From IMG/VR virus record IMGVR_UViG_3300033508_000321: a DNA stretch of 64,000 nt. The stretch is one strand, 5' to 3'. The DNA is from a virus. Made by a program: the position numbers and the translations under genes. The notes below the pieces were generated by a model. It made no database searches. It was not told where the DNA came from and was given only the letters and a program-made list of their open reading frames with translations. Positions 4,256 through 26,994 of the stretch are shown here, one piece after another; the stretch's first letter is position 1; every line of letters starts with the position of its first letter.

Positions 4256-4575
4256 TAGTAGTTTTCCCATCAATAATTCCGAACGGGTACAAGGCTATGG
4301 CTTTGTATCCTTTTATTTTCGTATCTGAGCCAAAAGGTACGTACGTATTTAAACTTTTGAGCAAAGGTCTGGAATACTCAAAAGCGGTAGGACGGTGGGA
4401 AAGAATGATTGCGCATGAAAGAGTACACCACAAACAACAAAAAGAATTGCTTTTCATTGGCTTTTTACTTGTATATTTGTACTTTCACTTGCGTTATGGA
4501 TATAGACACAACCCAATGGAAAAAGAAGCCGTACACGGTAGAAAAAAACGCTTTGGCTGGACTGAGTACATATGA
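4252..4575 (+). CDS. Small HExxH metallopeptidase-like protein with a hydrophobic segment
   Basis: 107 aa. It has 'AHERVHHKQQ' (HExxH), a later 'NPMEKEA', and a hydrophobic stretch 'LLFIGFLLVYLYF'. ATGA overlaps on both sides. Confidence 0.5.
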   Translation: MIVVFPSIIPNGYKAMALYPFIFVSEPKGTYVFKLLSKGLEYSKAVGRWERMIAHERVHHKQQKELLFIGFLLVYLYFHLRYGYRHNPMEKEAVHGRKKRFGWTEYI

Positions 4576-5999
4576 TAACAGATAAGGAAATAGAGGAACT
4601 GGTAACAGGTTTGTATAATGGTACGGTGAGCATCTTGCGCTTGCCGCAAAATCTTTTTGCCGCCACTTATCTCGAGTTAATGGGTGGTGTGACTAAAGGT
4701 TTTGGAATACCCGAATTTGAAACACCGGCACACGATGTACTCACTAAGCTAGGCAATAATATCAGCTCTTTTTCCGGCTGTAAGACGTTCAAAGAAACTT
4801 ATGATATGCAGCAACTTCTTTTCGATTCACAGGGCTATAAAAAGCCTTTTAATGTGTTCAAGAATGAAGTAATGACCGTTTACACGAATTACAACGAACG
4901 TTATTTACAAGCTGAGTACAACACCGCTATAAATTCCGCTTTTTCTGCTGCTGACTGGGTAGAATACGAAGCGGATAAAGACATATTCCCACTTCTTCAG
5001 TACAAAACAGTACATGATGGTAGGGTACGGGAAGACCATGCAAAACTGCATAACATAGTGAAGCCGGTAGATGATCCTTTTTGGGATACTTTCATGCCGT
5101 GCAACGGTTGGAATTGTAGATGCAGGGTAATAAAATTAACAGAATTTGAAGCCGAAGAAACACCACTTTCAGAGGATAAGCTAAAAGAACTTACTGAAGG
5201 TATTCCTGATATATTTCAATTTAATCCGGGCAAACGAGGTGAGATATTTTCGCAAAGTCATGATTATTTTAATGCCAATACACTACCGCCAAAGGTACGT
5301 ACGTATTTCACCGAAGAACGCAAAACCAATTTCGGGTTCGTTACACCACCAATACAGGGTGTAACCTCACCGATTCCGCAAAAAATCGTTACTGACTATA
5401 CCCATGCTGTAGAAGAAGTTAACGACTGGTATCTTACTTTGGGTGAAGTTGACCGTAAAATACTACGGCAGTACACAACCTATGGGGATGTTATTATGAG
5501 TAATTACCTACGGGGCACATTAAAAAATAGCGGTGACGTTCGAACTATCATAGATGTTAACGGTGTTCCGGTTCTTGTTGGTGGTGGTAAACCGCCAAAG
5601 AAAACACTGGAAATGATCGCAAAAGATTTAGCCAATAAAACTACCGATTTGTACAAGAAAGCACCTAAATTTGTAGGTACTTCCTACCGTGGGTTGGAGT
5701 TTAATAAACGTAACGATTTATTGGCTAAGTTTGAATCGCTAAAACCCGGAGATGTATTTGTCGAACCCGGCTTTATGAGTACTACACAAACTATAAAGGT
5801 TGGTTTAGACTTCTCAGGTGCTGCGGAAGGTGCTTTGATTGAAATAAAAAATGCTGAAGGCTACGCCATAAAAAGTTTTTCGCGGTTCAAAGGGGAGGAA
5901 GAAATACTACTGATGCCCGATACAGTATTAAGATTTGTAGAAAAAGAACGCATAACAGTAAACAGAGATAAATACATATTTGAGTATGTCAAACAATGA
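4572..5999 (+). CDS. Head morphogenesis protein (Mu F / SPP1 gp7 family) fused to a C-terminal ADP-ribosyltransferase domain
   Basis: MuF signature: 'VHDGRVREDHAKLH...FMPCNGWNCRCRV' (aa 147-186). ART R-S-E triad: 'SYRGL' (R373, nt 5688-5690), 'FMSTTQT' (nt 5778-5786), 'GEEEILL' (nt 5895-5903), plus 'YTTYGDVIMSNYLRG'. Confidence 0.85.
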   Translation: MITDKEIEELVTGLYNGTVSILRLPQNLFAATYLELMGGVTKGFGIPEFETPAHDVLTKLGNNISSFSGCKTFKETYDMQQLLFDSQGYKKPFNVFKNEVMTVYTNYNERYLQAEYNTAINSAFSAADWVEYEADKDIFPLLQYKTVHDGRVREDHAKLHNIVKPVDDPFWDTFMPCNGWNCRCRVIKLTEFEAEETPLSEDKLKELTEGIPDIFQFNPGKRGEIFSQSHDYFNANTLPPKVRTYFTEERKTNFGFVTPPIQGVTSPIPQKIVTDYTHAVEEVNDWYLTLGEVDRKILRQYTTYGDVIMSNYLRGTLKNSGDVRTIIDVNGVPVLVGGGKPPKKTLEMIAKDLANKTTDLYKKAPKFVGTSYRGLEFNKRNDLLAKFESLKPGDVFVEPGFMSTTQTIKVGLDFSGAAEGALIEIKNAEGYAIKSFSRFKGEEEILLMPDTVLRFVEKERITVNRDKYIFEYVKQ

Positions 6000-6192
6000 T
6001 TCACCATTAAGCAAAGATTTTGAGCCGGTTTTTACGCAGTGCAACACGTGTAAACATTTCTATAGGGAAAATGCTGATATTTCGTGTAAAGCATTTGAGA
6101 AAATTCCTATGAGTATTCTCACCAATAAAATAAAACACGATAAACCAATAGAGGGTCAAGAAAACAAAGTAGTGCATGAAAAAGCTAGGTAA
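5986..6192 (+). CDS. Hypothetical small protein
   Basis: 68 aa from ATG 5986 (the track start at 5980 is TTG). Contains 'CNTC'. Overlaps both neighbours. Confidence 0.4.
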   Translation: MSNNDSPLSKDFEPVFTQCNTCKHFYRENADISCKAFEKIPMSILTNKIKHDKPIEGQENKVVHEKAR

Positions 6193-6679
6193 TTTCGGTT
6201 TTCTCGAGGGTAATGCTAAAGGATTTCACGCAACAAAACTTCGTCTTGCGAAAATTCTACCCAATACCGCTTTAAATCACTTTTTAGAAGGGTTTGAACT
6301 GGGTGGGTATAAAACCGATGCATCCGAAAGTGGGTGGCCTAAAAGAAAAAAGAATTACCAAATGAAGAAACGTGGTACACGTGTACCGGGTCAAGTTCGT
6401 AGCGTAAATCGTGACCGTGCTTTGCTTGTTAAATCGGGTGCTTTACGTCGCTCGTTAAAAGTTACAGATTCAAGTCCAAATCTTATGCGTATAGCATCAC
6501 GTGGTATCAGATATGCAGCTATTCATAACTTCGGTCTGATGGGAAAAGCATTCGGGAAATGGCCTTTTAAGATGCCTAAACGTGAGTTCGTGGGTAAAAG
6601 CAGAGAACTAGACTTGAAACTGAATAAAATCATCATAGCCGCTTTTAAACGCTACATGAGTAGCTTAAAAAATCCTTAA
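6176..6679 (+). CDS. Virion morphogenesis protein (Mu gpG-like)
   Basis: 167 aa. 'LLVKSGALRRSLKV', 'YAAIHNFG' and 'PKREFVG' fit the Mu G / virion morphogenesis family pattern as I recall it. Confidence 0.6.
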   Translation: MKKLGNFGFLEGNAKGFHATKLRLAKILPNTALNHFLEGFELGGYKTDASESGWPKRKKNYQMKKRGTRVPGQVRSVNRDRALLVKSGALRRSLKVTDSSPNLMRIASRGIRYAAIHNFGLMGKAFGKWPFKMPKREFVGKSRELDLKLNKIIIAAFKRYMSSLKNP

Positions 6680-6707
6680 AAATTAGGCTTTTAAAACAGT
6701 CTAGGTT

Positions 6708-6715
6708 TATATTTG
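6708..6715 (+). promoter_or_regulatory. TAnnTTTG box
   Basis: TATATTTG, 25 nt before ATG 6741, in a 61-bp AT-rich gap. Confidence 0.4.
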
Positions 6716-6740
6716 CATTAAAATTAAAATTAAAATCTCT

Positions 6741-7292
6741 ATGGTTGTTTTCGATATATACCGAGCCATACGTACAGCATTAGAAGCATCTACCATCATT
6801 GAGCACATTGGCTGGTATAATGACCAGATCAATAATGAAGAGCTTGAAACAGCCTACAATCATCCCGCCGTTTTTATCGAATTTCCTGACAATGCTTGGG
6901 AACAGCAAATGCATAGCACGTTCGGTAATACCGGTGCTCAGGCAAATGGTTACATTCAAATAAACGTACACGTGGAATTTACCCTGCTAAATGATATTAG
7001 TGATGAGGTTGATTACATGGAAAGCATCGTAGAAGAGGTTTATTACCGTTTGGTAGGTCTTTCCGGAACTAATTTTACCACATTCAAACGTTTTGCCGAT
7101 GGTGGCACACCAACAGCATCACGTGTGTACGAATGGGTACTAAAATTTTCAACAACCGGCATAGAAGAAGGTAAAGACTTAGGTGCTATAGATGTAACAG
7201 AGGGCGATACAAACCCAATAGACTTAGTGCTGAACACCGATTTAGATATTGATAACCAGATAATACGTACAGGCGATGGCAATTACATTTGA
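6741..7292 (+). CDS. Hypothetical head-tail joining / tail completion-like protein
   Basis: 183 aa. A TATATTTG box at 6708-6715 lies 26 nt upstream. The N-terminus loosely resembles DUF3168-type proteins (weak). Confidence 0.5.
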   Translation: MVVFDIYRAIRTALEASTIIEHIGWYNDQINNEELETAYNHPAVFIEFPDNAWEQQMHSTFGNTGAQANGYIQINVHVEFTLLNDISDEVDYMESIVEEVYYRLVGLSGTNFTTFKRFADGGTPTASRVYEWVLKFSTTGIEEGKDLGAIDVTEGDTNPIDLVLNTDLDIDNQIIRTGDGNYI

Positions 7293-7542
7293 GCGGCTAA
7301 CTGATAGCCGAAAAATTACCGTAAAGCGAGATGGTATTGTACAAAGAACGTTCGATGTGCAAGACAACGTAAGCATTTTGAGCACTAAAGAGGCGGGGGT
7401 AGAAAACCCAAACATGGTGCGCATGCTGAATAACTTAGAAGTGTACGAGTTTGACTGGAGAGAAGTGACCATAACACCTACCCCCGGTAGTAGAAATGAA
7501 CTGGTACAAACTTTGATCTTGAATTTTTTTTTTTTGACGTAG
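7276..7542 (+). CDS. Hypothetical virion protein, probably the 5' part of a frameshifted gene
   Basis: 88 aa. It ends 7 nt after a T12 run (7524-7535). The -1 frame is open from 7500 through the run into the next ORF. Confidence 0.5.
   Translation: MAITFERLTDSRKITVKRDGIVQRTFDVQDNVSILSTKEAGVENPNMVRMLNNLEVYEFDWREVTITPTPGSRNELVQTLILNFFFLT
7524..7535 (+). promoter_or_regulatory. T12 homopolymer: candidate -1 frameshift or transcriptional slippage site
   Basis: 'GAATTTTTTTTTTTTGAC'. A one-base back-slip (or a T13 transcript) fuses 7276-7535 in frame to 7536-8861. Confidence 0.5.
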
Positions 7543-7667
7543 GTCTTATTGGTAACACCCCTTTAAAAGTAGCTTATTATGAAGCAATTACAACAACTAG
7601 CGGACAAATCACGAAACCGACTGGATCAACAATCCTCCTCGACCAATGGTCTAACGGGGTTGATGCG

Positions 7668-8861
7668 TTGGTTTGTAAAATCGTTGGTGGAAAACCAGAT
7701 TTTGAGGATTCCGGTGTGGACGTTCTCACTTTTGACGTTGATGGTAATTATACAATTAGTGCAGCTTTACCTTCTAATCCGGCAGCATTAATATTTTACT
7801 TATCCGTACCGCTCAAGTTCATGGGTAATTTAGACATAAATTACACCATTCAGTACGTTGAGTTATCTTACACAGGGTTAGACCATAGCACGCTAATAAA
7901 TCGTGACGTTGCGGGAAATCATACACTGGTAAAACCGCTAGCAGATTCAACTACCGCATTTATGATGCAAAAAGCGGATGGTACACCTATATTTATTTTC
8001 GATAGTACGAGTGAAAGTATAAGTATAGCAGGGTTACTTGACGTACTAAAGCAAATTAGTCTTGGTGGAACGGATCTTGTAATATCGGACAATGGTAATA
8101 TAAATGCATACGGCAGCCGTATGATGAGCTTTGCCGATGGTACGCTGTATGACATGCAGGCAACTAACAGGGTAAGTATTGACTTCGTAAATCGTATACT
8201 TCAACGTATGTGGACAATCACCGGAACGAGTAATGACGGTAGCACACGTATTTTACAAGGAAATAATTCGGATAATACCACTGTATTTGCGGTAGACACC
8301 AATGGATTTGAGCTCGATCAGTATGACGACCTATTGCCATCTGCCCAGTGGCTAGCCACCAGCGGAGCACCGAGCCCAGACTTAGTGACTGCAACCATTG
8401 GTGGGGTAGTATTCAGCCTGTGGGCATTCGATGGGGGAAATACAGCAGAAAGTATGACTTCGTACTTCGAAGTTATACATGGGATTGATATTGACATTCT
8501 AAATGCCGATACACTACTTGCAGAAATTCATACACATGGGATGCCCAGTACTAACGCTGCCGGTGTGGTGAAGGTATTTTTCTCGATAGTGTACCTTCCG
8601 GTAGGTGGTGTCCCTCAGTTATTGGGTACTTTCAGCACGCTTATTACCATCGCGCTAAATCAGCAGTATTTCCACAAGCTGGGTGGCGTAGAAATACCTA
8701 AACCTACCTCCGGTTACGGTATTGGTGACCAAATACTGGTGAAGTATGAGCGAAAGCCTAACGATGCTCAAGATACATACGGTGCAGACTGGCTATTCTT
8801 GCAGTGTGCGTTGCATATGCCATTCAATTCCAGAGGTAGCCGCCAAAGATATGTGAAGTAA
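7668..8861 (+). CDS. Hypothetical virion protein, probably the 3' part of a frameshifted gene (frame open from 7500)
   Basis: The first start in this frame is TTG 7668. The frame has no ATG, GTG or TTG between the stop at 7497-7499 and 7668, although that stretch reads like protein ('DVGLIGNTPLKVAYYEAITTTSGQITKPTG'). Confidence 0.6.
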   Translation: MVCKIVGGKPDFEDSGVDVLTFDVDGNYTISAALPSNPAALIFYLSVPLKFMGNLDINYTIQYVELSYTGLDHSTLINRDVAGNHTLVKPLADSTTAFMMQKADGTPIFIFDSTSESISIAGLLDVLKQISLGGTDLVISDNGNINAYGSRMMSFADGTLYDMQATNRVSIDFVNRILQRMWTITGTSNDGSTRILQGNNSDNTTVFAVDTNGFELDQYDDLLPSAQWLATSGAPSPDLVTATIGGVVFSLWAFDGGNTAESMTSYFEVIHGIDIDILNADTLLAEIHTHGMPSTNAAGVVKVFFSIVYLPVGGVPQLLGTFSTLITIALNQQYFHKLGGVEIPKPTSGYGIGDQILVKYERKPNDAQDTYGADWLFLQCALHMPFNSRGSRQRYVK

Positions 8862-8898
8862 AAACACTTAAAAATTCTGATATTTCCCCCGCCACCGT

Positions 8899-8906
8899 TA
8901 GCTTTG
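8899..8906 (+). promoter_or_regulatory. TAnnTTTG box
   Basis: TAGCTTTG, 19 nt before ATG 8926. Confidence 0.4.
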
Positions 8907-8925
8907 AACCATAAAAATTAAAATC

Positions 8926-9633
8926 ATGGATATTCTATCTTTTTTCAAGTGGACTAACGAATTTTTGGCATTAATCGTTGCCATTGGTGGTAGTGGCGCT
9001 ACACTTTTTGGCCTTATATACAGTCACTTGAAACGTCAAAAAGCGGAGGAAAGCATCGCTGAGAAACTCAGTAGTATTGACTTACAACAAAATGAGAAAT
9101 TACAACAGATGGACGCAAGCGTACAAGAATTGGCTGTTATCGTTACCAACACGCAAGAGATTTTAAATATATTGCAAAAGGAAAAGCTAGATAAGGCTTT
9201 TTTGGATAACCTCAAAGTAAAAATTTCTGATTTGGGTGATACGATTATGAAGGTACATCACCTAGATAATGCTTTCGAAAGTCTGATAGTAGAAGCAACC
9301 GAAAAAGCGGGTAGTGTGTTCAAGGATATTTGGCGCACAGGTTACGTGAATTGGGATACTGAGGTACTAGCACGAAAAATTACATCTGCTATGCGTAGCC
9401 TACGTACTTATTACACTGGACACGTGGTTACACCGCCAGAGGTTATCGAAGAAATTCAACGTAGGGTTGCACAACCAGCCATAAAAAGGTTGCTTACCAG
9501 TTTGGAAATGTTCAAATCAGGTCAGTACAATGGTTCTACATCAAAAAAGTACGAGGAAGTAGTACTGAATTTTTGCCGGGAAATGATTGAAGGCGGTATA
9601 GAAATAAATCATTCTATTCAAAAGCGGACTTAA
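8926..9633 (+). CDS. Membrane-anchored helical protein, function unknown
   Basis: 235 aa. An N-terminal TM helix 'FLALIVAIGGSGATLFGLIY' is followed by a heptad-rich helical region. It has its own TAGCTTTG box at 8899-8906. Confidence 0.6.
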   Translation: MDILSFFKWTNEFLALIVAIGGSGATLFGLIYSHLKRQKAEESIAEKLSSIDLQQNEKLQQMDASVQELAVIVTNTQEILNILQKEKLDKAFLDNLKVKISDLGDTIMKVHHLDNAFESLIVEATEKAGSVFKDIWRTGYVNWDTEVLARKITSAMRSLRTYYTGHVVTPPEVIEEIQRRVAQPAIKRLLTSLEMFKSGQYNGSTSKKYEEVVLNFCREMIEGGIEINHSIQKRT

Positions 9634-10129
9634 GGTCAGTTAACACTTTTTGAGTGAGCGTATCTGGTAAGAATTTGCCGGATATTTTTATTTCCGTTTT
9701 TTCGATGCCGTTTGCTATGAATGTACCTACTTCGATTTTATCAAGATTCTTAGTGTATTGGATTACCTCGTCAAGTAGTTCATCATTTAAACAGCGTACC
9801 TCTGGCTGTAGCCAATCGTAATGATAGTGGTAAGCCTTCAAAACACCGTCAATAAACTTATAGGTTGATTTTACGATTTTAGGAATTTTCACATCCTTCG
9901 AATAAAAATAAAGTCTGGCGGTGGTAGGTGTGATGCTGTACATATCGGCAACCTCTTTCAAGTGATCCGGGTAGCGAAATGGTTTTTTATCTATGCTGTG
10001 CTGAATAGCTCGATCCCGCATTTCCATTTTTATTGCGTAGATAAGCATACTACGATCTGATACTAAACCGCATTCAATCCCATCCCGGATAGTTGGTACT
10101 GTATCGAAAACAAGCCTATGGTATTTCAT
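9614..10129 (-). CDS. Putative HTH DNA-binding regulator (only convincing minus-strand gene)
   Basis: 171 aa with an ATG start. HTH-like 'LKEVADMYSITPTTARLYF'. Convergent 20-nt overlap with 8926-9633. Divergent from 10233 across a 103-bp AT-rich gap that carries a 12-bp inverted repeat. Confidence 0.6.
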   Translation of the reverse strand: MKYHRLVFDTVPTIRDGIECGLVSDRSMLIYAIKMEMRDRAIQHSIDKKPFRYPDHLKEVADMYSITPTTARLYFYSKDVKIPKIVKSTYKFIDGVLKAYHYHYDWLQPEVRCLNDELLDEVIQYTKNLDKIEVGTFIANGIEKTEIKISGKFLPDTLTQKVLTDLKSAFE

Positions 10130-10157
10130 GAAAAATATTTTTTTGTAAAATTAAGTG

Positions 10158-10221
10158 AATTTTAACAAAAATGTATAAAAATTTTGTATCGGGCACGCTA
10201 AGAATTTACTTTGTTAAAATT
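10158..10221. repeat. 12-bp perfect inverted repeat AATTTTAACAAA / TTTGTTAAAATT in the divergent control region
   Basis: Arms at 10158-10169 and 10210-10221 with a 40-bp spacer. Each arm contains the TTAACAA half-site. Confidence 0.8.
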
Positions 10222-10232
10222 TTGTTATTGAT

Positions 10233-11417
10233 ATGATACAAAACGCAAAAAATGCTACTCTAAAGAACGGCGTGTACAGCATTAACATCTTTGGCGAAAT
10301 CAGAGATTCAAGTTGGTTAGCTGAGGTTATTGATATGTGTCAACGTGAAACTGACATAAGCACTATAGAGCTGCGCATTAATTCTACGGGTGGTTACGTG
10401 GTGGATGGTTTTTCCGTTGTTTCTGCTATGCTAAATTCAAGTAAGCCAATACGTACCGTGAATGAAGGTGTGGCCGCTTCTATTGCCGCTGTTATTTTCT
10501 TAGCCGGAAACGAACGTTGGATGCGTGATTATGCAAAAGTAATGATTCACGATCCCAGTATGTGGGGCGAAGAAATCGAAAAAATGCCCGATGGTAAAAA
10601 CAAAACCGGGTTAATAAATCTTCGTGAAATGATAGCGCAGTTTATCACGTCACAAAGTGGAATGAACCTACCTACCGTACGTAAGAAAATGAATGATGAA
10701 ACTTGGTTCACCGCACCTGAGTGCAAAGAACTGGGTATGGTAGAAAAGATACTCACTACCAAACGGAAAGTAGCACTGCCCGAAAATTCAATGGATGCTC
10801 TCTTAATGGCAACTAATATACTTAATTTTAACAATTTGAATATGATTCGTGAATTTTTTAACCTGCCAGAGGACGCTTCGGAAGAAATGATCCTCGATGC
10901 GGCTAAAAACTTGCAAAACGAAGCAGCAGAGGCAAAAGGCAAAGTTTCAGAAATGGAAAACAGCCTAAAAGACTTGAATGCTTCAATAGAGAGTTTGAAT
11001 GCCAATGTGACAAACAAAAATTCGGAAATCGAAAATTTGAAAGCCGAAAACGCTTCAAAACTCGAGGCAGTTACAAACGAACTTACCAGCGCAAAAAACG
11101 AACTGGAACAGTTGAACGGTGTTGTAGCTGAGCAAGAGGTAGAGGCCGCAATAAAAGCCGGAAAATTCACCGAAGCCGATAAAGAAACGCTGCTCGTATC
11201 TGCCAAAAACAACTTGGATACTTTCCGCAAAATCGCTGCCAGTGTACGCACTAACGTACCAAAGATTACTGACGTGATTAACAAACCTGCGGTTACTGAA
11301 TCCAAAAATGATTGGGGCTACAGCGAATGGTCTAAAAAAGACCCAGAGGGTTTGAAAAAACTGCAAGCAGAGAACCCTGCAAAATTCAAAAATTTACTTG
11401 ACAAATACCTAAACTAA
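10233..11417 (+). CDS. Prohead protease (ClpP / S14 family) fused to a coiled-coil scaffold domain
   Basis: 'INSTGGYVVDGFSV', 'GVAASIAAVIFLAG' (Ser) and 'KVMIHDPS' (His) are ClpP-type motifs. The C-terminal 190 aa are heptad-rich (E/K/N/L). Confidence 0.8.
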   Translation: MIQNAKNATLKNGVYSINIFGEIRDSSWLAEVIDMCQRETDISTIELRINSTGGYVVDGFSVVSAMLNSSKPIRTVNEGVAASIAAVIFLAGNERWMRDYAKVMIHDPSMWGEEIEKMPDGKNKTGLINLREMIAQFITSQSGMNLPTVRKKMNDETWFTAPECKELGMVEKILTTKRKVALPENSMDALLMATNILNFNNLNMIREFFNLPEDASEEMILDAAKNLQNEAAEAKGKVSEMENSLKDLNASIESLNANVTNKNSEIENLKAENASKLEAVTNELTSAKNELEQLNGVVAEQEVEAAIKAGKFTEADKETLLVSAKNNLDTFRKIAASVRTNVPKITDVINKPAVTESKNDWGYSEWSKKDPEGLKKLQAENPAKFKNLLDKYLN

Positions 11418-11424
11418 ACAAGCA

Positions 11425-11781
11425 ATGAGCGCAGATGCTAATTCTCATTTTGTAAGTTTTCCCTTCGGAGGTTTCGAAGAGGTAGACTTGACCGCTACGG
11501 GTGCACAAGCTATCGCCGTTGGTGGTAGTAACCTCTTAATAGATGGTGTATCGACCGTAGCTACTGGAAATAGAACCCTAAACCTGACCGTTGGTAGCAA
11601 CGTGACCGTGGGTACTGCTATTTTCCTGAAATCGAAAACCACTGGCACAGAAACTACCGTATTTGGCACAGGTTTCACAGCCCCTACTATTACCGGTGTA
11701 GCTGGTAAAACTTTCTCATGTATGTACGTTTACGATGGTGCGGCTTTCCGCCCTGTTGGGACAGCAGTTCAAAACGACTAA
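11425..11781 (+). CDS. Hypothetical head protein (decoration or auxiliary, by position)
   Basis: 118 aa, G/T/V-rich. Lies between the protease-scaffold and capsid genes. Confidence 0.45.
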   Translation: MSADANSHFVSFPFGGFEEVDLTATGAQAIAVGGSNLLIDGVSTVATGNRTLNLTVGSNVTVGTAIFLKSKTTGTETTVFGTGFTAPTITGVAGKTFSCMYVYDGAAFRPVGTAVQND

Positions 11782-11794
11782 TATTTAATCGAAT

Positions 11795-12712
11795 ATGGCA
11801 ACAGAAGTATTAAAAAGGTTGTTTAGCCGTGAAATCGCATCAAACCTTTTTCCCGACAACCAATTTTACAAGTATTCAAAGCTCGTTGGTGGTGTAAACC
11901 CTGACGTGGCCGTGGTAGAAATACCAAACGCAGGTGCAGTTCCTACTGTAGTAGTTAACCCTACCGTTTACCCTTTGCAGATTGTAGAGCGTAAAGACGA
12001 CCGCCAAACTTTCAACGTGGATTTGTTTGCAACAAAACCTACCCTTTTGACTGACGAAAATCAGTTGGTTGTAAGTTACGACAAACGTGCCGATGTGTTG
12101 AAAGACCATACAAGTACTTTGAATAGCGAAATCGCTTTTCGTATAGCTCACGCATGGGCAAGTGGTATACCCGCAGGTGGACTTTTCCCAACAACCGGTA
12201 CAACTACCCGTAGTGCTTCACTACCCTCAGCAACCGGTACACGTAAACGTGCAATCGCTGCCGACATACAAAAAATTCAGGAATACATGGACAAACAAGA
12301 CGTGCCAATGGATGGCCGTTACGCTGTTCTACCTGCTGAATTGTATGGTGACCTTGCATTGGTTGACGAGTTTATCTCGTACGACAGACGTGGTTTGGTT
12401 GACATGGTGAAAATGGGTCTGATTGGTGAGATTTACGGTTTCCGTATCTTCAAACGTAGCTCAGTGGTTCTTGCAAACGCTTCTAGTGGTGCATTGAAAG
12501 CCATAGGTGCTGCTGCCGCAACTACCGATTCATACGCTGGTCTTTTCTGGCATGAATCTTTTGCTTGGAGAGCAGAAGGAAACGCAAAAATCTACATTAA
12601 CCCTGATCAAGCCGAGTACCTTGGTACTGTTATGAACGCCGCAGTTCGTGCCGGTGGTGCTACTTCTTACCTTGACGGTAAAGGTGTTGCAATGCTTTAT
12701 CAAGCAAGCTAA
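11795..12712 (+). CDS. Major capsid protein (Mu gpT-like size and position)
   Basis: 305 aa, immediately after the protease-scaffold in a Mu-like head module. No search was run, so the call rests on position, size and composition. Confidence 0.65.
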   Translation: MATEVLKRLFSREIASNLFPDNQFYKYSKLVGGVNPDVAVVEIPNAGAVPTVVVNPTVYPLQIVERKDDRQTFNVDLFATKPTLLTDENQLVVSYDKRADVLKDHTSTLNSEIAFRIAHAWASGIPAGGLFPTTGTTTRSASLPSATGTRKRAIAADIQKIQEYMDKQDVPMDGRYAVLPAELYGDLALVDEFISYDRRGLVDMVKMGLIGEIYGFRIFKRSSVVLANASSGALKAIGAAAATTDSYAGLFWHESFAWRAEGNAKIYINPDQAEYLGTVMNAAVRAGGATSYLDGKGVAMLYQAS

Positions 12713-21856: not shown

Positions 21857-21884
21857 AAAAGCCCGTTTTACCGGGCTTTTTCTA
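21857..21884 (+). terminator. Rho-independent terminator ending the morphogenesis block
   Basis: AAAAGCCCG-ttttac-CGGGCTTTT followed by a T-run. Confidence 0.7.
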
Positions 21885-22066
21885 TTTAAAACTAACCAAA
21901 ACGAGTAAAAATATTATATAAACCAGTGAAAAAATATGAGAAGCGCACCAACCTAAAAGTGCTTGGGTTAACTAACCCGATACAAAGGTAAAATTTTTGC
22001 GCAAAGGTTTACGTCATTAACAAAATTTTAACATGATGGACTATTGACAAATACAAAAATCGGGTT

Positions 22067-26933: not shown

Positions 26934-26994
26934 AAAAATGGTATTAACAAACAGTTAACAACAACCAAAGAAAAACATAGATAATTTTACACCT

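What the first reader, a model, noticed from the sequence alone, without database searches (positions are those of the whole stretch)
9614..10232. Single antisense gene in 64 kb: an HTH protein embedded in the head module with a TTAACAA-bearing inverted repeat in its control region
All other convincing genes are on the + strand. The 9614-10129 gene (171 aa, HTH-like 'LKEVADMYSITPTTARLYF') is transcribed against the flow. It sits between virion genes and diverges from the prohead protease gene.

The 103-bp divergent gap has a perfect 12-bp inverted repeat (10158-10169 / 10210-10221). Each arm contains the TTAACAA half-site found across the early-region promoters. One hypothesis is that this protein recognises TTAACAA, autoregulates, and gates the switch to late capsid/tail transcription. 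I have no direct evidence for this.
Basis: inference. Interest (0 to 1): 0.6.

Follow-up and report, generated by a model that had tools for sequence, protein, structure and literature searches.

The report
Lone antisense regulator-slot gene before phage head protease

Summary
Observation confirmed. ORF 9614-10129(-) is the only convincing minus-strand gene in the window. Its codon score is the best of 147 minus-strand ORFs. All 12 listed natural SNPs inside it are third-position and synonymous, so it is translated and under purifying selection. The 12-bp perfect inverted repeat is real (about 2% of shuffles reach 12).

Interpretation partly supported. The protein is an ORFan: no hit in Pfam, PHROGs, NCBIfam, PADLOC, PDB or 1.84 billion HMMER representatives. 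Its HTH has only soft support.

The repeat arms are not a private operator. They are the proximal half-sites of two face-to-face copies of the genome-wide TTAACAA-N4-TTAACAA box.

New context:
- The gap lies at the junction where phage Mu has its late promoter P_I.
- Of 80 IMG/VR loci with related proteases, 72 carry a minus-strand HTH- or RHH-like gene just upstream of the protease.
- In 37 of these (families A-C), all six loci whose gene layout I mapped show a lone antisense gene arranged like this one.

Best reading (about 0.5): a local DNA-binding regulator of this divergent control region.

The scan noted this same stretch once before, in an overlapping window of the same genome, as a 'moron-like pair' that was not followed up.

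The parts
9614..10129 (-). P0001: 171-aa orphan protein gene. It has a possible central helix-turn-helix (about residues 34-77) and an unassigned alpha/beta C-terminal half.
   Evidence: ORF and translation. Gene-like codon score, best of 147 minus-strand ORFs. 12 of 12 listed population SNPs are synonymous third-position changes. No family hit. No homologue.
10130..10232 (.). 103-nt divergent control region (19% GC) between P0001 and the protease gene. It corresponds positionally to the Mu G|I operon boundary, which holds late promoter P_I.
   Evidence: Mu annotation. Synteny with L002, L003 and family-A loci.
10158..10169 (+). Left arm of the perfect 12-bp inverted repeat AATTTTAACAAA. It is the spacer plus proximal half-site of a degenerate + strand dyad.
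10210..10221 (-). Right arm of the inverted repeat. It is the spacer plus proximal half-site of the minus-strand dyad.
10211..10228 (-). Dyad box ATAACAA-AATT-TTAACAA (13 of 14 specified bases), co-oriented with P0001. It ends 81 nt before the P0001 ATG. It lies on top of the -7-like box that abuts the protease ATG.
   Evidence: One of 25 dyads against 1.7 expected. Coordinates read.
10151..10168 (+). Degenerate dyad TTAAGTG-AATT-TTAACAA (11 of 14), co-oriented with the protease gene. It lies 10 nt upstream of a -7-like box.
   Evidence: Read. The canonical boxes have 9 nt between the dyad and TAnnTTTG.
10145..10153 (-). TAATTTTAC, a variant Bacteroidota-type -7 box, 15 nt before the P0001 ATG and 57 nt after the minus-strand dyad. 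Candidate P0001 promoter.
   Evidence: The same TAnnTTTAC variant lies just before gene starts at 26982, 41482, 51393 and 60389.
10217..10224 (+). AAATTTTG (7 of 8 match to TAnnTTTG), ending 8 nt before the protease ATG. Candidate head-operon promoter giving a near-leaderless mRNA. A second copy lies at 10179-10186 (direct repeat AAAATTTTGT).
   Evidence: direct repeat. Relatives have a TTTG box ending 4-8 nt before the protease start in 9 of the 14 family A-C gaps listed, and the window's own gap shows it too.
10233..11417 (+). Prohead protease-scaffold gene (ClpP plus Mu-like I protein). It is the first gene of the downstream head-tail operon.
   Evidence: Pfam CLP_protease 2e-23 and Mu-like_Pro 9e-11; PHROG head maturation protease 1e-38.
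8926..9633 (+). P0010: 235-aa orphan with an N-terminal hydrophobic helix. It is the convergent neighbour and overlaps P0001 by 20 nt. It is also under purifying selection.
   Evidence: 8 of 10 listed SNPs are synonymous; the other 2 fall in one codon.
9660..9685 (+). Terminator-like hairpin plus T-run for + strand transcripts, embedded in the 3' coding part of P0001. Weak evidence.
   Evidence: 1 found, 1.1 expected in shuffles. Fold z-score only -1.66.

Best explanation
P0001 is a real, translated, phage-specific protein. It occupies a conserved 'regulator slot': the lone antisense gene immediately upstream of, and divergent from, the prohead-protease / major-capsid operon of Mu-like-head phages of Bacteroidota.

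It is most likely a DNA-binding protein that acts on the 103-bp region it shares with the protease gene. There it would set its own expression and the firing of the head-operon promoter that abuts the protease ATG.

The 12-bp inverted repeat is formed by the proximal half-sites of two face-to-face copies of the genome-wide TTAACAA-N4-TTAACAA promoter box. The better copy points at P0001 and lies on top of the protease promoter's -7-like box. The weaker copy points at the protease gene and touches P0001's -7-like box.

The box is probably read by another factor, either a host or widely shared response-regulator-type protein. That would tie P0001 expression to the non-structural gene class and could hold the head promoter off while the factor is bound.

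Shown: the gene is real and under selection; the slot architecture is conserved; the boxes and their geometry are as described. Inferred: DNA binding by P0001, the promoter assignments, and any regulatory outcome.
For: Real gene:
- Codon score is in the gene range and is the best of 147 minus-strand ORFs.
- 12 of 12 listed SNPs from three metagenome runs are third-position and synonymous, where 21% is expected by chance.

Slot:
- 73 of 80 IMG/VR loci with a related protease have a family A-D gene next to it, 72 of them on the minus strand.
- Families A (HTH, 21 minus-strand loci), B and C (ribbon-helix-helix-like by eye, 10 and 6 loci) were lone antisense genes in all six loci mapped (L136, L164, L137, L146, L155, L188). 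There they lie between + structural genes and the + protease, with 3' ends overlapping the upstream gene, exactly as here.
- Family-A loci are syntenic with the window.
- The cultured Flavobacterium phage FPSV-S1 has a 166-aa minus-strand gene in the same place.
- Family-specific repeats sit in those gaps, for example TGGTCTA-N4-TGGTCTA in family C.

HTH leads:
- All named Atlas neighbours of residues 30-100 are HTH families, while those of 95-171 are scattered.
- The best hhalign alignment to the family-A profile falls in register on residues 34-71.

Position: Mu has a terminator plus late promoter P_I at the same G|I junction (PMC4461284, PMC2582627).

Boxes.
Against: - No profile or structure method assigns an HTH or any other fold. 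Pfam gives nothing even on fragments at E up to 10. AF2 pLDDT is 34 and 51. The Foldseek result is meaningless.
- hhalign against family A gives E 0.037 and probability 1.4%, which is not significant.
- P0001 is 2.5-3.5 times larger than the family A-C proteins.
- The protein-DNA co-fold scored 0.00, the same as its controls, and the tool gives no verdict for this kind of complex.
- No exact TAnnTTTG lies in the gap on either strand, so both promoter assignments rest on 7-of-8 or variant boxes.
- No RNA run was listed, so transcription is unobserved.
- A conserved slot shows where regulators sit in relatives. It does not show that this non-homologous occupant is one.
Confidence: 0.5

Rival explanations
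1. One reading: P0001 is itself the TTAACAA-recognising factor. It binds the two inverted arms, autoregulates, and switches on late capsid and tail transcription.
For: The only perfect copies of the extended half-site AATTTTAACAAA are the two arms in its own control region. In relatives, family-specific repeats in the equivalent gap look like operators of the resident small regulator. By analogy, the repeat here would be P0001's operator.
Against: - The motif works as head-to-tail dyads with 11-bp phasing at about 25 sites. That arrangement suits tandem winged-helix binders, not a symmetric HTH dimer.
- The arms here are about 49 bp apart start to start, too far for one dimer.
- Dyad arrays occur in other viral contigs, for example 10 co-oriented copies in L117, nine of them 62-90 nt before an ORF. 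The fetched stretches show no P0001 relative.
- P0001 has no homologue among 1.84 billion representatives.
- Each arm is half of a dyad pointing at a gene.
- The co-fold with gap DNA scored 0.00 (the tool gives no verdict, so this is weak evidence).
Confidence: 0.15
2. Accessory 'moron'-type gene. P0001, together with the fibre-like and membrane-protein genes 7276-9633, is cargo inserted at an operon boundary. It acts on the host (takeover, anti-defence or exclusion) and has no role at the neighbouring promoter.
For: - The block 7276-10129 is absent from syntenic relatives, which go from the g183 homologue through one or two small genes (a single small antisense gene in L002 and the family-A loci; two + strand genes in L003) to the protease.
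- Both P0001 and its neighbour P0010 are ORFans.
- P0001 appears to have its own dyad-box promoter of the non-structural class.
- Haplotype breakpoints fall at the gene's start.
Against: - Its codon usage is indistinguishable from the rest of the phage.
- No PADLOC or other defence-related hit.
- No terminator of its own was found.
- Its strand and position reproduce the conserved regulator slot.
- Residues 30-100 draw only HTH-type neighbours.
Confidence: 0.3
3. Not a gene: a chance open frame in a non-coding spacer.
For: No homologues and no confident fold.
Against: - A 171-codon ORF fills a 600-nt stretch that has no + strand ORF.
- Its codon score is gene-like.
- 12 of 12 listed SNPs are synonymous in this frame, with chance probability about 0.21^12.
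Confidence: 0.02

Closest known systems
Phage Mu late promoter P_I and the Mor/C family activators
   Same: Same gene order: portal, F, G-like, then the I-type protease-scaffold and the T-type capsid gene. In Mu, the G|I junction carries a terminator and the C-activated late promoter P_I (PMC2582627, PMC4461284). The window's gap is at that junction. A small protein with a possible HTH sits next to it.
   Different: - Mu C is encoded far away in the middle operon, is 140 aa, and has a C-terminal HTH.
- P0001 shows no Mor/C profile or BLAST similarity.
- P0001 is antisense and adjacent to the promoter.
- The host promoter type is Bacteroidota TAnnTTTG, not sigma-70.
Lone antisense small HTH/RHH genes upstream of the protease in related uncultured Bacteroidota-type phages (families A, B, C defined here), and the 166-aa minus-strand gene of Flavobacterium phage FPSV-S1
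   Same: Same slot and same strand. In the loci mapped, the 3' end overlaps the upstream + gene convergently, and the gap to the protease is short and AT-rich, with repeats and a TTTG box abutting the protease ATG.
   Different: - Those proteins are 48-69 aa; P0001 is 171 aa.
- No significant sequence relation.
- Their gap repeats are family-specific, whereas here the repeat is the genome-wide TTAACAA box.
- None of these genes has been studied experimentally.
immI region of phage P22 (mnt, arc, ant), from my own knowledge
   Same: Small DNA-binding repressor genes, one transcribed against the flow, embedded in a late structural operon. They have overlapping face-to-face promoters and operators in a short control region.
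   Different: P22 immI controls an antirepressor in a temperate phage. Here no integrase or antirepressor was seen among the genes scanned, and the divergent partner is the head protease operon.
Pho-box-type direct repeats read by PhoB/PhoP (OmpR-family) regulators. Lead from earlier notes e1-3777927 and e1-2903796.
   Same: Seven-base half-sites in direct repeat with 11-bp phasing, placed just upstream of the core promoter element.
   Different: The copy at 10211-10228 overlaps a -7-like box of the opposite promoter, which is a repression geometry. No paper was found for a Bacteroidota Pho box.

Membership tests
Helix-turn-helix DNA-binding proteins (Pfam HTH clan) | Significant match to an HTH family profile | tested here: not met
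   No Pfam family for the whole protein at E up to 1, or for four fragments at E up to 10. No NCBIfam or PDB match.
Helix-turn-helix DNA-binding proteins (Pfam HTH clan) | Three-helix fold with a recognition helix | tested here: inconclusive
   AF2 without an alignment gives pLDDT 34 (full length) and 51 (residues 1-100). Foldseek gives no hit below E = 3. Atlas neighbours of residues 30-100 are all HTH families, but at scores of 0.71-0.74, below the tool's reliability mark.
Mor/C late-transcription activators (PF08765) | Profile or sequence similarity to Mor/C | tested here: not met
   No Pfam hit. BLASTP against Mu C gives E = 11.
Mor/C late-transcription activators (PF08765) | About 130-140 aa with an N-terminal dimerisation domain and a C-terminal HTH | tested here: not met
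   P0001 is 171 aa. The candidate HTH is central (about residues 55-77) and is followed by a 95-residue unassigned domain.
Lone antisense regulator upstream of the prohead protease (positional class, families A-C of this report) | Minus-strand gene immediately upstream of the protease, flanked by + structural genes, with its 3' end overlapping the upstream gene | tested here: met
   The window layout matches L136, L164, L137, L146, L155 and L188. 37 loci carry a minus-strand family A-C gene in this slot.
Lone antisense regulator upstream of the prohead protease (positional class, families A-C of this report) | Sequence homology to family A, B or C | tested here: inconclusive
   BLASTP finds nothing. 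hhalign of the family-A profile against P0001 aligns the HTH region in register, but with E 0.037 and probability 1.4%.
Reader of the TTAACAA dyads (OmpR/PhoB-type winged-helix regulator) | Trans_reg_C-type winged-helix domain | tested here: not met
   No such Pfam hit.
Reader of the TTAACAA dyads (OmpR/PhoB-type winged-helix regulator) | Co-occurrence with the dyad in other genomes | tested here: not met
   Dyad arrays occur in L117, L111 and L056, with no tblastn match to P0001 in those loci. Only the fetched stretches (14 kb or less) were searched.
Moron (independently transcribed accessory gene in a late operon) | Absent from close syntenic relatives; has its own promoter and terminator; atypical composition | tested here: inconclusive
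   Absent from relatives: yes. Own promoter: plausible. Own terminator: not found. Composition: typical of the phage.
Small terminase subunit (family D of this report) | Terminase-type N-terminal HTH, followed by the large terminase gene on the same strand | tested here: not met
   Family D hits HTH_23, Terminase_5 and Phage_terminase, and precedes a 497-524-aa ORF that matches annotated terminase large subunits. P0001 has neither feature. By synteny, the window's terminase genes lie upstream of the Gp36-like ORF at 1-699.

The most novel reading that the evidence does not exclude
The lone antisense gene before the prohead protease is the late-switch regulator of a large group of Bacteroidota phages with Mu-like heads. 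It has been repeatedly replaced by non-homologous DNA-binding proteins: HTH, ribbon-helix-helix-like, and here the 171-aa P0001. In this phage, P0001 and a TTAACAA-reading factor (host or shared) compete on interlocked, face-to-face promoters. Each dyad lies on top of the opposing promoter's -7 box. This would form a compact toggle that times head-gene expression relative to the non-structural genes.
Probability: 0.15. Interest if true: 0.7.

Novelty: new variant of a known kind. Interest (0 to 1): 0.45.

Why it matters
How phages of Bacteroidota time their late (virion) genes is poorly understood in my knowledge, and their hosts use a non-standard promoter (TAnnTTTG).

This analysis turns an apparent oddity, one backward gene in 64 kb, into an instance of a conserved layout. 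In 72 of 80 related viral loci a minus-strand gene with HTH- or RHH-like features faces the protease-capsid operon. The families occupying the slot differ, and family-specific repeats sit in the shared gap.

That gives a concrete, testable candidate for the head-operon switch. One relative, Flavobacterium phage FPSV-S1, is cultured and could be used for such tests.

It also corrects the attractive but unsupported idea that this orphan protein reads the TTAACAA boxes.

Tried and rejected
Searches that found nothing for P0001:
- Pfam, PHROGs, NCBIfam, PADLOC and PDB-sequence searches, whole protein and fragments.
- tblastn against 50,697 phage records.
- IMG/VR peptide scan.
- Word search of 5.8 billion proteins: only the protein itself.
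- Full HMMER search of 1.84 billion representatives: two apparent hits, 1975 and 4830 aa. Both are summed scores over tandem repeats (12 and 5 matched stretches), each stretch about 25-33 bits. Rejected as artefacts.

Structure and binding:
- AF2 without an alignment gave unusable models, and Foldseek on the better one was meaningless.
- The ESMFold2 co-fold of two P0001 copies with the gap DNA scored 0.00, like its controls; the tool gives no verdict for this kind of complex.

Context searches:
- The neighbour P0010 has no homologues.
- The exact-pattern scan of metagenome contigs for the gap core found nothing. The pattern itself is correct, since it is found in L001.
- No RNA run was listed.
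- Literature searches for a PhoP TTAACA box failed or returned nothing.

Ideas considered and dropped:
- Homing endonuclease or nuclease: no motif or hit.
- CI-type lysogeny repressor: no integrase among the 20 larger genes scanned, and the phage has a lytic-type replication set of PolA, DnaB-type helicase, RecA-like protein, dUTPase and ThyX.
- Small terminase.
- Loose ends of contigs at 10131 and 10172 as evidence for a variant lacking P0001: the matched parts are only about 40 nt of low-complexity sequence, so I left this uninterpreted.
Full report
**What is there**

The window is most of a 66-kb contig of an uncultured tailed phage. The phage has a Mu-type head module:
- portal at 701-2116
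- MuF fused to an ADP-ribosyltransferase at 4572-5999
- ClpP/Mu-I protease-scaffold at 10233-11417
- capsid gene at 11795-12712

It also has a lytic-type replication set: family-A polymerase, DnaB-type helicase, RecA-like protein, dUTPase and ThyX. No integrase was found among the 20 larger genes scanned.

The nearest cultured relatives by protease are Flavobacterium psychrophilum phages at 27% identity. Intergenic gaps carry the Bacteroidota -7 box TAnnTTTG (motif as in PMC6847099 and PMC2483708). The phage recurs in microbial-mat metagenomes from 2014 to 2023 and in one freshwater sample.

ORF 9614-10129 on the minus strand encodes 171 aa (P0001). Its 3' end overlaps the + gene 8926-9633 by 20 nt. 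It diverges from the protease gene across 103 nt of 19% GC.

**Is it a gene, and the only antisense one?**

A codon-usage log-odds model was trained on 44 sure + genes. P0001 scores 0.22-0.25, against 0.286 +/- 0.065 for the training genes in leave-one-out. All 15 other minus-strand ORFs of 100 aa or more score negative. P0001 ranks first of 147 minus-strand ORFs of 50 aa or more.

I laid the contigs of four public metagenome runs on 6100-11500. This showed natural variants, and all 12 listed differences inside the ORF fall on third codon positions and are synonymous. Ten of them belong to a second haplotype in one mat sample, and three are in the freshwater relative (two shared with that haplotype). 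A random change is synonymous only 21% of the time. A few further differences were not displayed by the tool.

The neighbour P0010 shows the same pattern: 8 of 10 listed SNPs are synonymous. So both are translated genes under purifying selection. No RNA run was listed, so transcription itself remains unobserved.

**What the protein is**

No family can be assigned.
- Pfam (whole protein and four fragments, up to E = 10), PHROGs, NCBIfam, PADLOC and PDB sequences give no usable match; the only entries are a PHROG of unknown function at E 0.047 and a PDB chorismate mutase at E 1.3, both non-significant.
- The 5.8-billion-protein word search returns only the protein itself.
- The full HMMER search of 1.84 billion representatives returns two giant repeat proteins. 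Their scores are sums over many weak repeat matches and are artefacts.
- Single-sequence AF2 models are poor, with pLDDT 34 and 51, and Foldseek on the better one is noise.

The HTH idea therefore has only soft support:
- The ESM Atlas neighbours of residues 30-100 are all HTH families (Sigma70_r4, HTH_23, Mor, HTH_psq, Spo0A_C, Myb), at low scores of 0.71-0.74.
- The neighbours of residues 95-171 are scattered, which serves as an internal control.
- The best hhalign alignment to a nine-member profile of the small HTH proteins found in the same slot of relatives falls in register on residues 34-71, but is not significant: E 0.037, probability 1.4%.

**What the inverted repeat is**

The 12-bp repeat is exact and is reached by 1.9% of dinucleotide shuffles of the gap.

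Its arms are extended TTAACAA half-sites. One-mismatch copies of the 12-mer elsewhere are the upstream half-sites of the genome's TTAACAA-N4-TTAACAA dyads.

A scan for dyads with at most 2 mismatches finds 25, against 1.7 in shuffles. One is ATAACAA-AATT-TTAACAA at 10228-10211 on the minus strand, pointing at P0001. The left arm belongs to a degenerate + strand dyad, TTAAGTG-AATT-TTAACAA at 10151-10168, pointing at the protease gene.

So the 'inverted repeat' is two face-to-face promoter boxes with the same AATT spacer.

The gap has no exact TAnnTTTG on either strand. It does have:
- on the minus strand, TAATTTTAC at 10153-10145, 15 nt before the P0001 ATG. This variant also lies just before four other gene starts.
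- on the + strand, two copies of AAATTTTG. One lies 10 nt after the + dyad; the canonical spacing is 9 nt. The other, at 10217-10224, ends 8 nt before the protease ATG.

The second + strand box lies inside the minus-strand dyad. The minus-strand -7-like box overlaps the distal half of the + dyad. A factor on either dyad would therefore sit on the opposing promoter. This geometry is read from the sequence; its function is inferred.

**Who reads TTAACAA?**

Earlier notes of this scan (e1-3777927, e1-2903796) read the dyads as PhoB/PhoP-type boxes. I did not re-test that assignment. I did check how widely the dyads occur.

An exact-pattern scan of IMG/VR was capped, and most contigs showed single, chance-level matches. 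A few fetched stretches, however, carry arrays:
- L117 has ten co-oriented dyads, nine of them 62-90 nt upstream of an ORF.
- L111 has eight.
- L056 has nine.

None of these stretches encodes anything like P0001, and P0001 has no homologue anywhere. A widely shared, direct-repeat element is unlikely to be read by a singleton orphan. Because P0001's own upstream region carries a good dyad, it looks like a member of that regulon.

The co-fold of two P0001 copies with the gap DNA scored 0.00, like its controls. The tool gives no verdict for this kind of complex, so this is uninformative.

**Comparative context (the main new result)**

Distant syntenic phages (protease about 31% identical) lack the block 7276-10129. 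Next to the protease they have a small gene whose product looks DNA-binding:
- a 64-aa minus-strand protein in L002
- its 56-aa homologue on the + strand in L003
- a 53-aa minus-strand protein in L126

A protease-profile scan of IMG/VR returned 80 loci. Of these, 73 have a member of one of four families beside the protease, and 72 of those are on the minus strand.

- **Family A** (21 minus, 1 plus; 54-69 aa) gives sub-threshold HTH_11, HTH_DeoR and HTH_22 hits. Two members weakly hit the PHROG 'late transcriptional activator'.
- **Families B** (10 loci) and **C** (6 loci) are 48-61-aa proteins (one family-C member is called as 87 aa) that look ribbon-helix-helix-like by eye. No profile supports this.
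- **Family D** (35 loci, 151-180 aa) is a small-terminase-type HTH protein. It heads a leftward operon with a 497-524-aa ORF that matches annotated terminase large subunits. This is a different architecture.

In all six family A-C loci whose layout I mapped, the gene is a lone antisense gene lying between + structural genes and the + protease. Its 3' end overlaps the upstream gene by 4-30 nt, and the gap to the protease is 47-86 nt in those six loci (29-121 nt over all gaps measured). This is the same layout as P0001.

Family-A loci share the window's Phage_tail_S-like and 183-aa genes upstream.

The gaps carry family-specific repeats: TGGTCTA-N4-TGGTCTA in family C and GTTAC-type repeats in family B. 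Most have a TTTG box ending 4-8 nt before the protease start. The L188 sequence just before its ATG is nearly the same as the window's.

The cultured phage FPSV-S1 has an unannotated 166-aa minus-strand gene in the slot. It shows no similarity to P0001.

In phage Mu, the homologous G|I junction carries a terminator and the C-dependent late promoter P_I (PMC2582627, PMC4461284).

By synteny, the window's own terminase genes lie upstream of the Gp36-like ORF at 1-699, so P0001 is not the small terminase.

**Reading**

The antisense orientation is not an accident of this genome. It is the local version of a conserved arrangement at an operon boundary, where a promoter for the protease-capsid operon is expected.

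The usual logic of a divergently transcribed regulator with a shared control region applies, and so do the family-specific repeats in relatives. Together they make a locally acting DNA-binding regulator the best single reading for P0001 (about 0.5).

The main rival (about 0.3) is that P0001 is accessory cargo with a host-directed function. On that reading it was inserted, with the fibre-like and membrane genes, at a permissive boundary.

P0001 cannot be filed in any known protein family. Mor/C, winged-helix response regulators and small terminases were tested and not met. HTH in general remains unproven.

**Verdict**

This is a new variant of a known kind: a phage regulator-type gene at a late-operon boundary, here an orphan occupant of a conserved slot. 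Interest is moderate. The conserved slot, with its non-homologous occupants, is the part worth following up.

Noticed in passing
window 21860-21990 (minus strand): This is the only exact intergenic TAnnTTTG on the minus strand (TACCTTTG, starting at 21990). It shares the 11-mer TTTGTATCGGG with the + strand of the 10130-10232 gap. It points leftward at a bidirectional-looking hairpin near 21860-21885. This may be a roughly 110-130-nt minus-strand transcript (small RNA or peptide) next to the tRNA gene.
   Followed up: no
L155, L183, L188 (gaps between the small minus-strand gene and the protease): Family-C loci carry direct repeats of TGGTC(T/C)A with 11-bp phasing next to the small gene's start. 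Family-B loci carry GTTAC-type inverted or direct repeats. These are likely operators of the resident small proteins.
   Followed up: partly
L145, L151, L159-L162, L166-L173, L177-L179, L181, L185, L186, L189-L194, L196, L199, L200, L203-L205, L207, L209, L210, L212: In 35 of 80 related loci, the gene divergent from the protease is a small-terminase-type HTH protein. In the four loci mapped, it is followed on the same strand by a large-terminase-like ORF. The closest annotated matches are in Porphyromonas and Bacteroides phages. In these phages the terminase operon and the protease-capsid operon diverge from one control region.
   Followed up: partly
L117 (IMGVR_UViG contig, 31% GC): Ten co-oriented TTAACAA-N4-TTAACA(A/C) dyads occur in 14 kb. 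Most are followed by a short GC hairpin with a T-run and then TATATTTAC about 25 nt before an ATG. This looks like a repeated terminator-promoter cassette, like the window's cassettes, in an apparently unrelated phage.
   Followed up: partly
window 10024-10129 and 6153-6556: The divergence is mosaic. One mat sample holds a second haplotype with at least 10 synonymous differences in the first 30 codons of P0001. It has none across the gap or the next 1 kb of the protease gene. The 99.5%-identical contig L001 has 24 of its 27 differences clustered in 6153-6556. Together these suggest recombination breakpoints at gene boundaries.
   Followed up: partly
window 7513-7524 (T-run): The T-run length varies between natural copies: one T fewer in L001 and two fewer in run X2.
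   Followed up: no
window 9660-9685: A terminator-like hairpin with a T-run on the + strand lies 27 nt after the stop of gene 8926-9633, inside the coding sequence of the antisense gene. If it is functional, the head operon must restart in the 10130-10232 gap.
   Followed up: partly
L213 2685-3185 (Flavobacterium phage FPSV-S1, MK764442): This cultured phage has an unannotated 166-aa minus-strand gene between + structural genes, 258 nt upstream of its CLP protease. It offers a tractable system for testing the antisense slot.
   Followed up: partly
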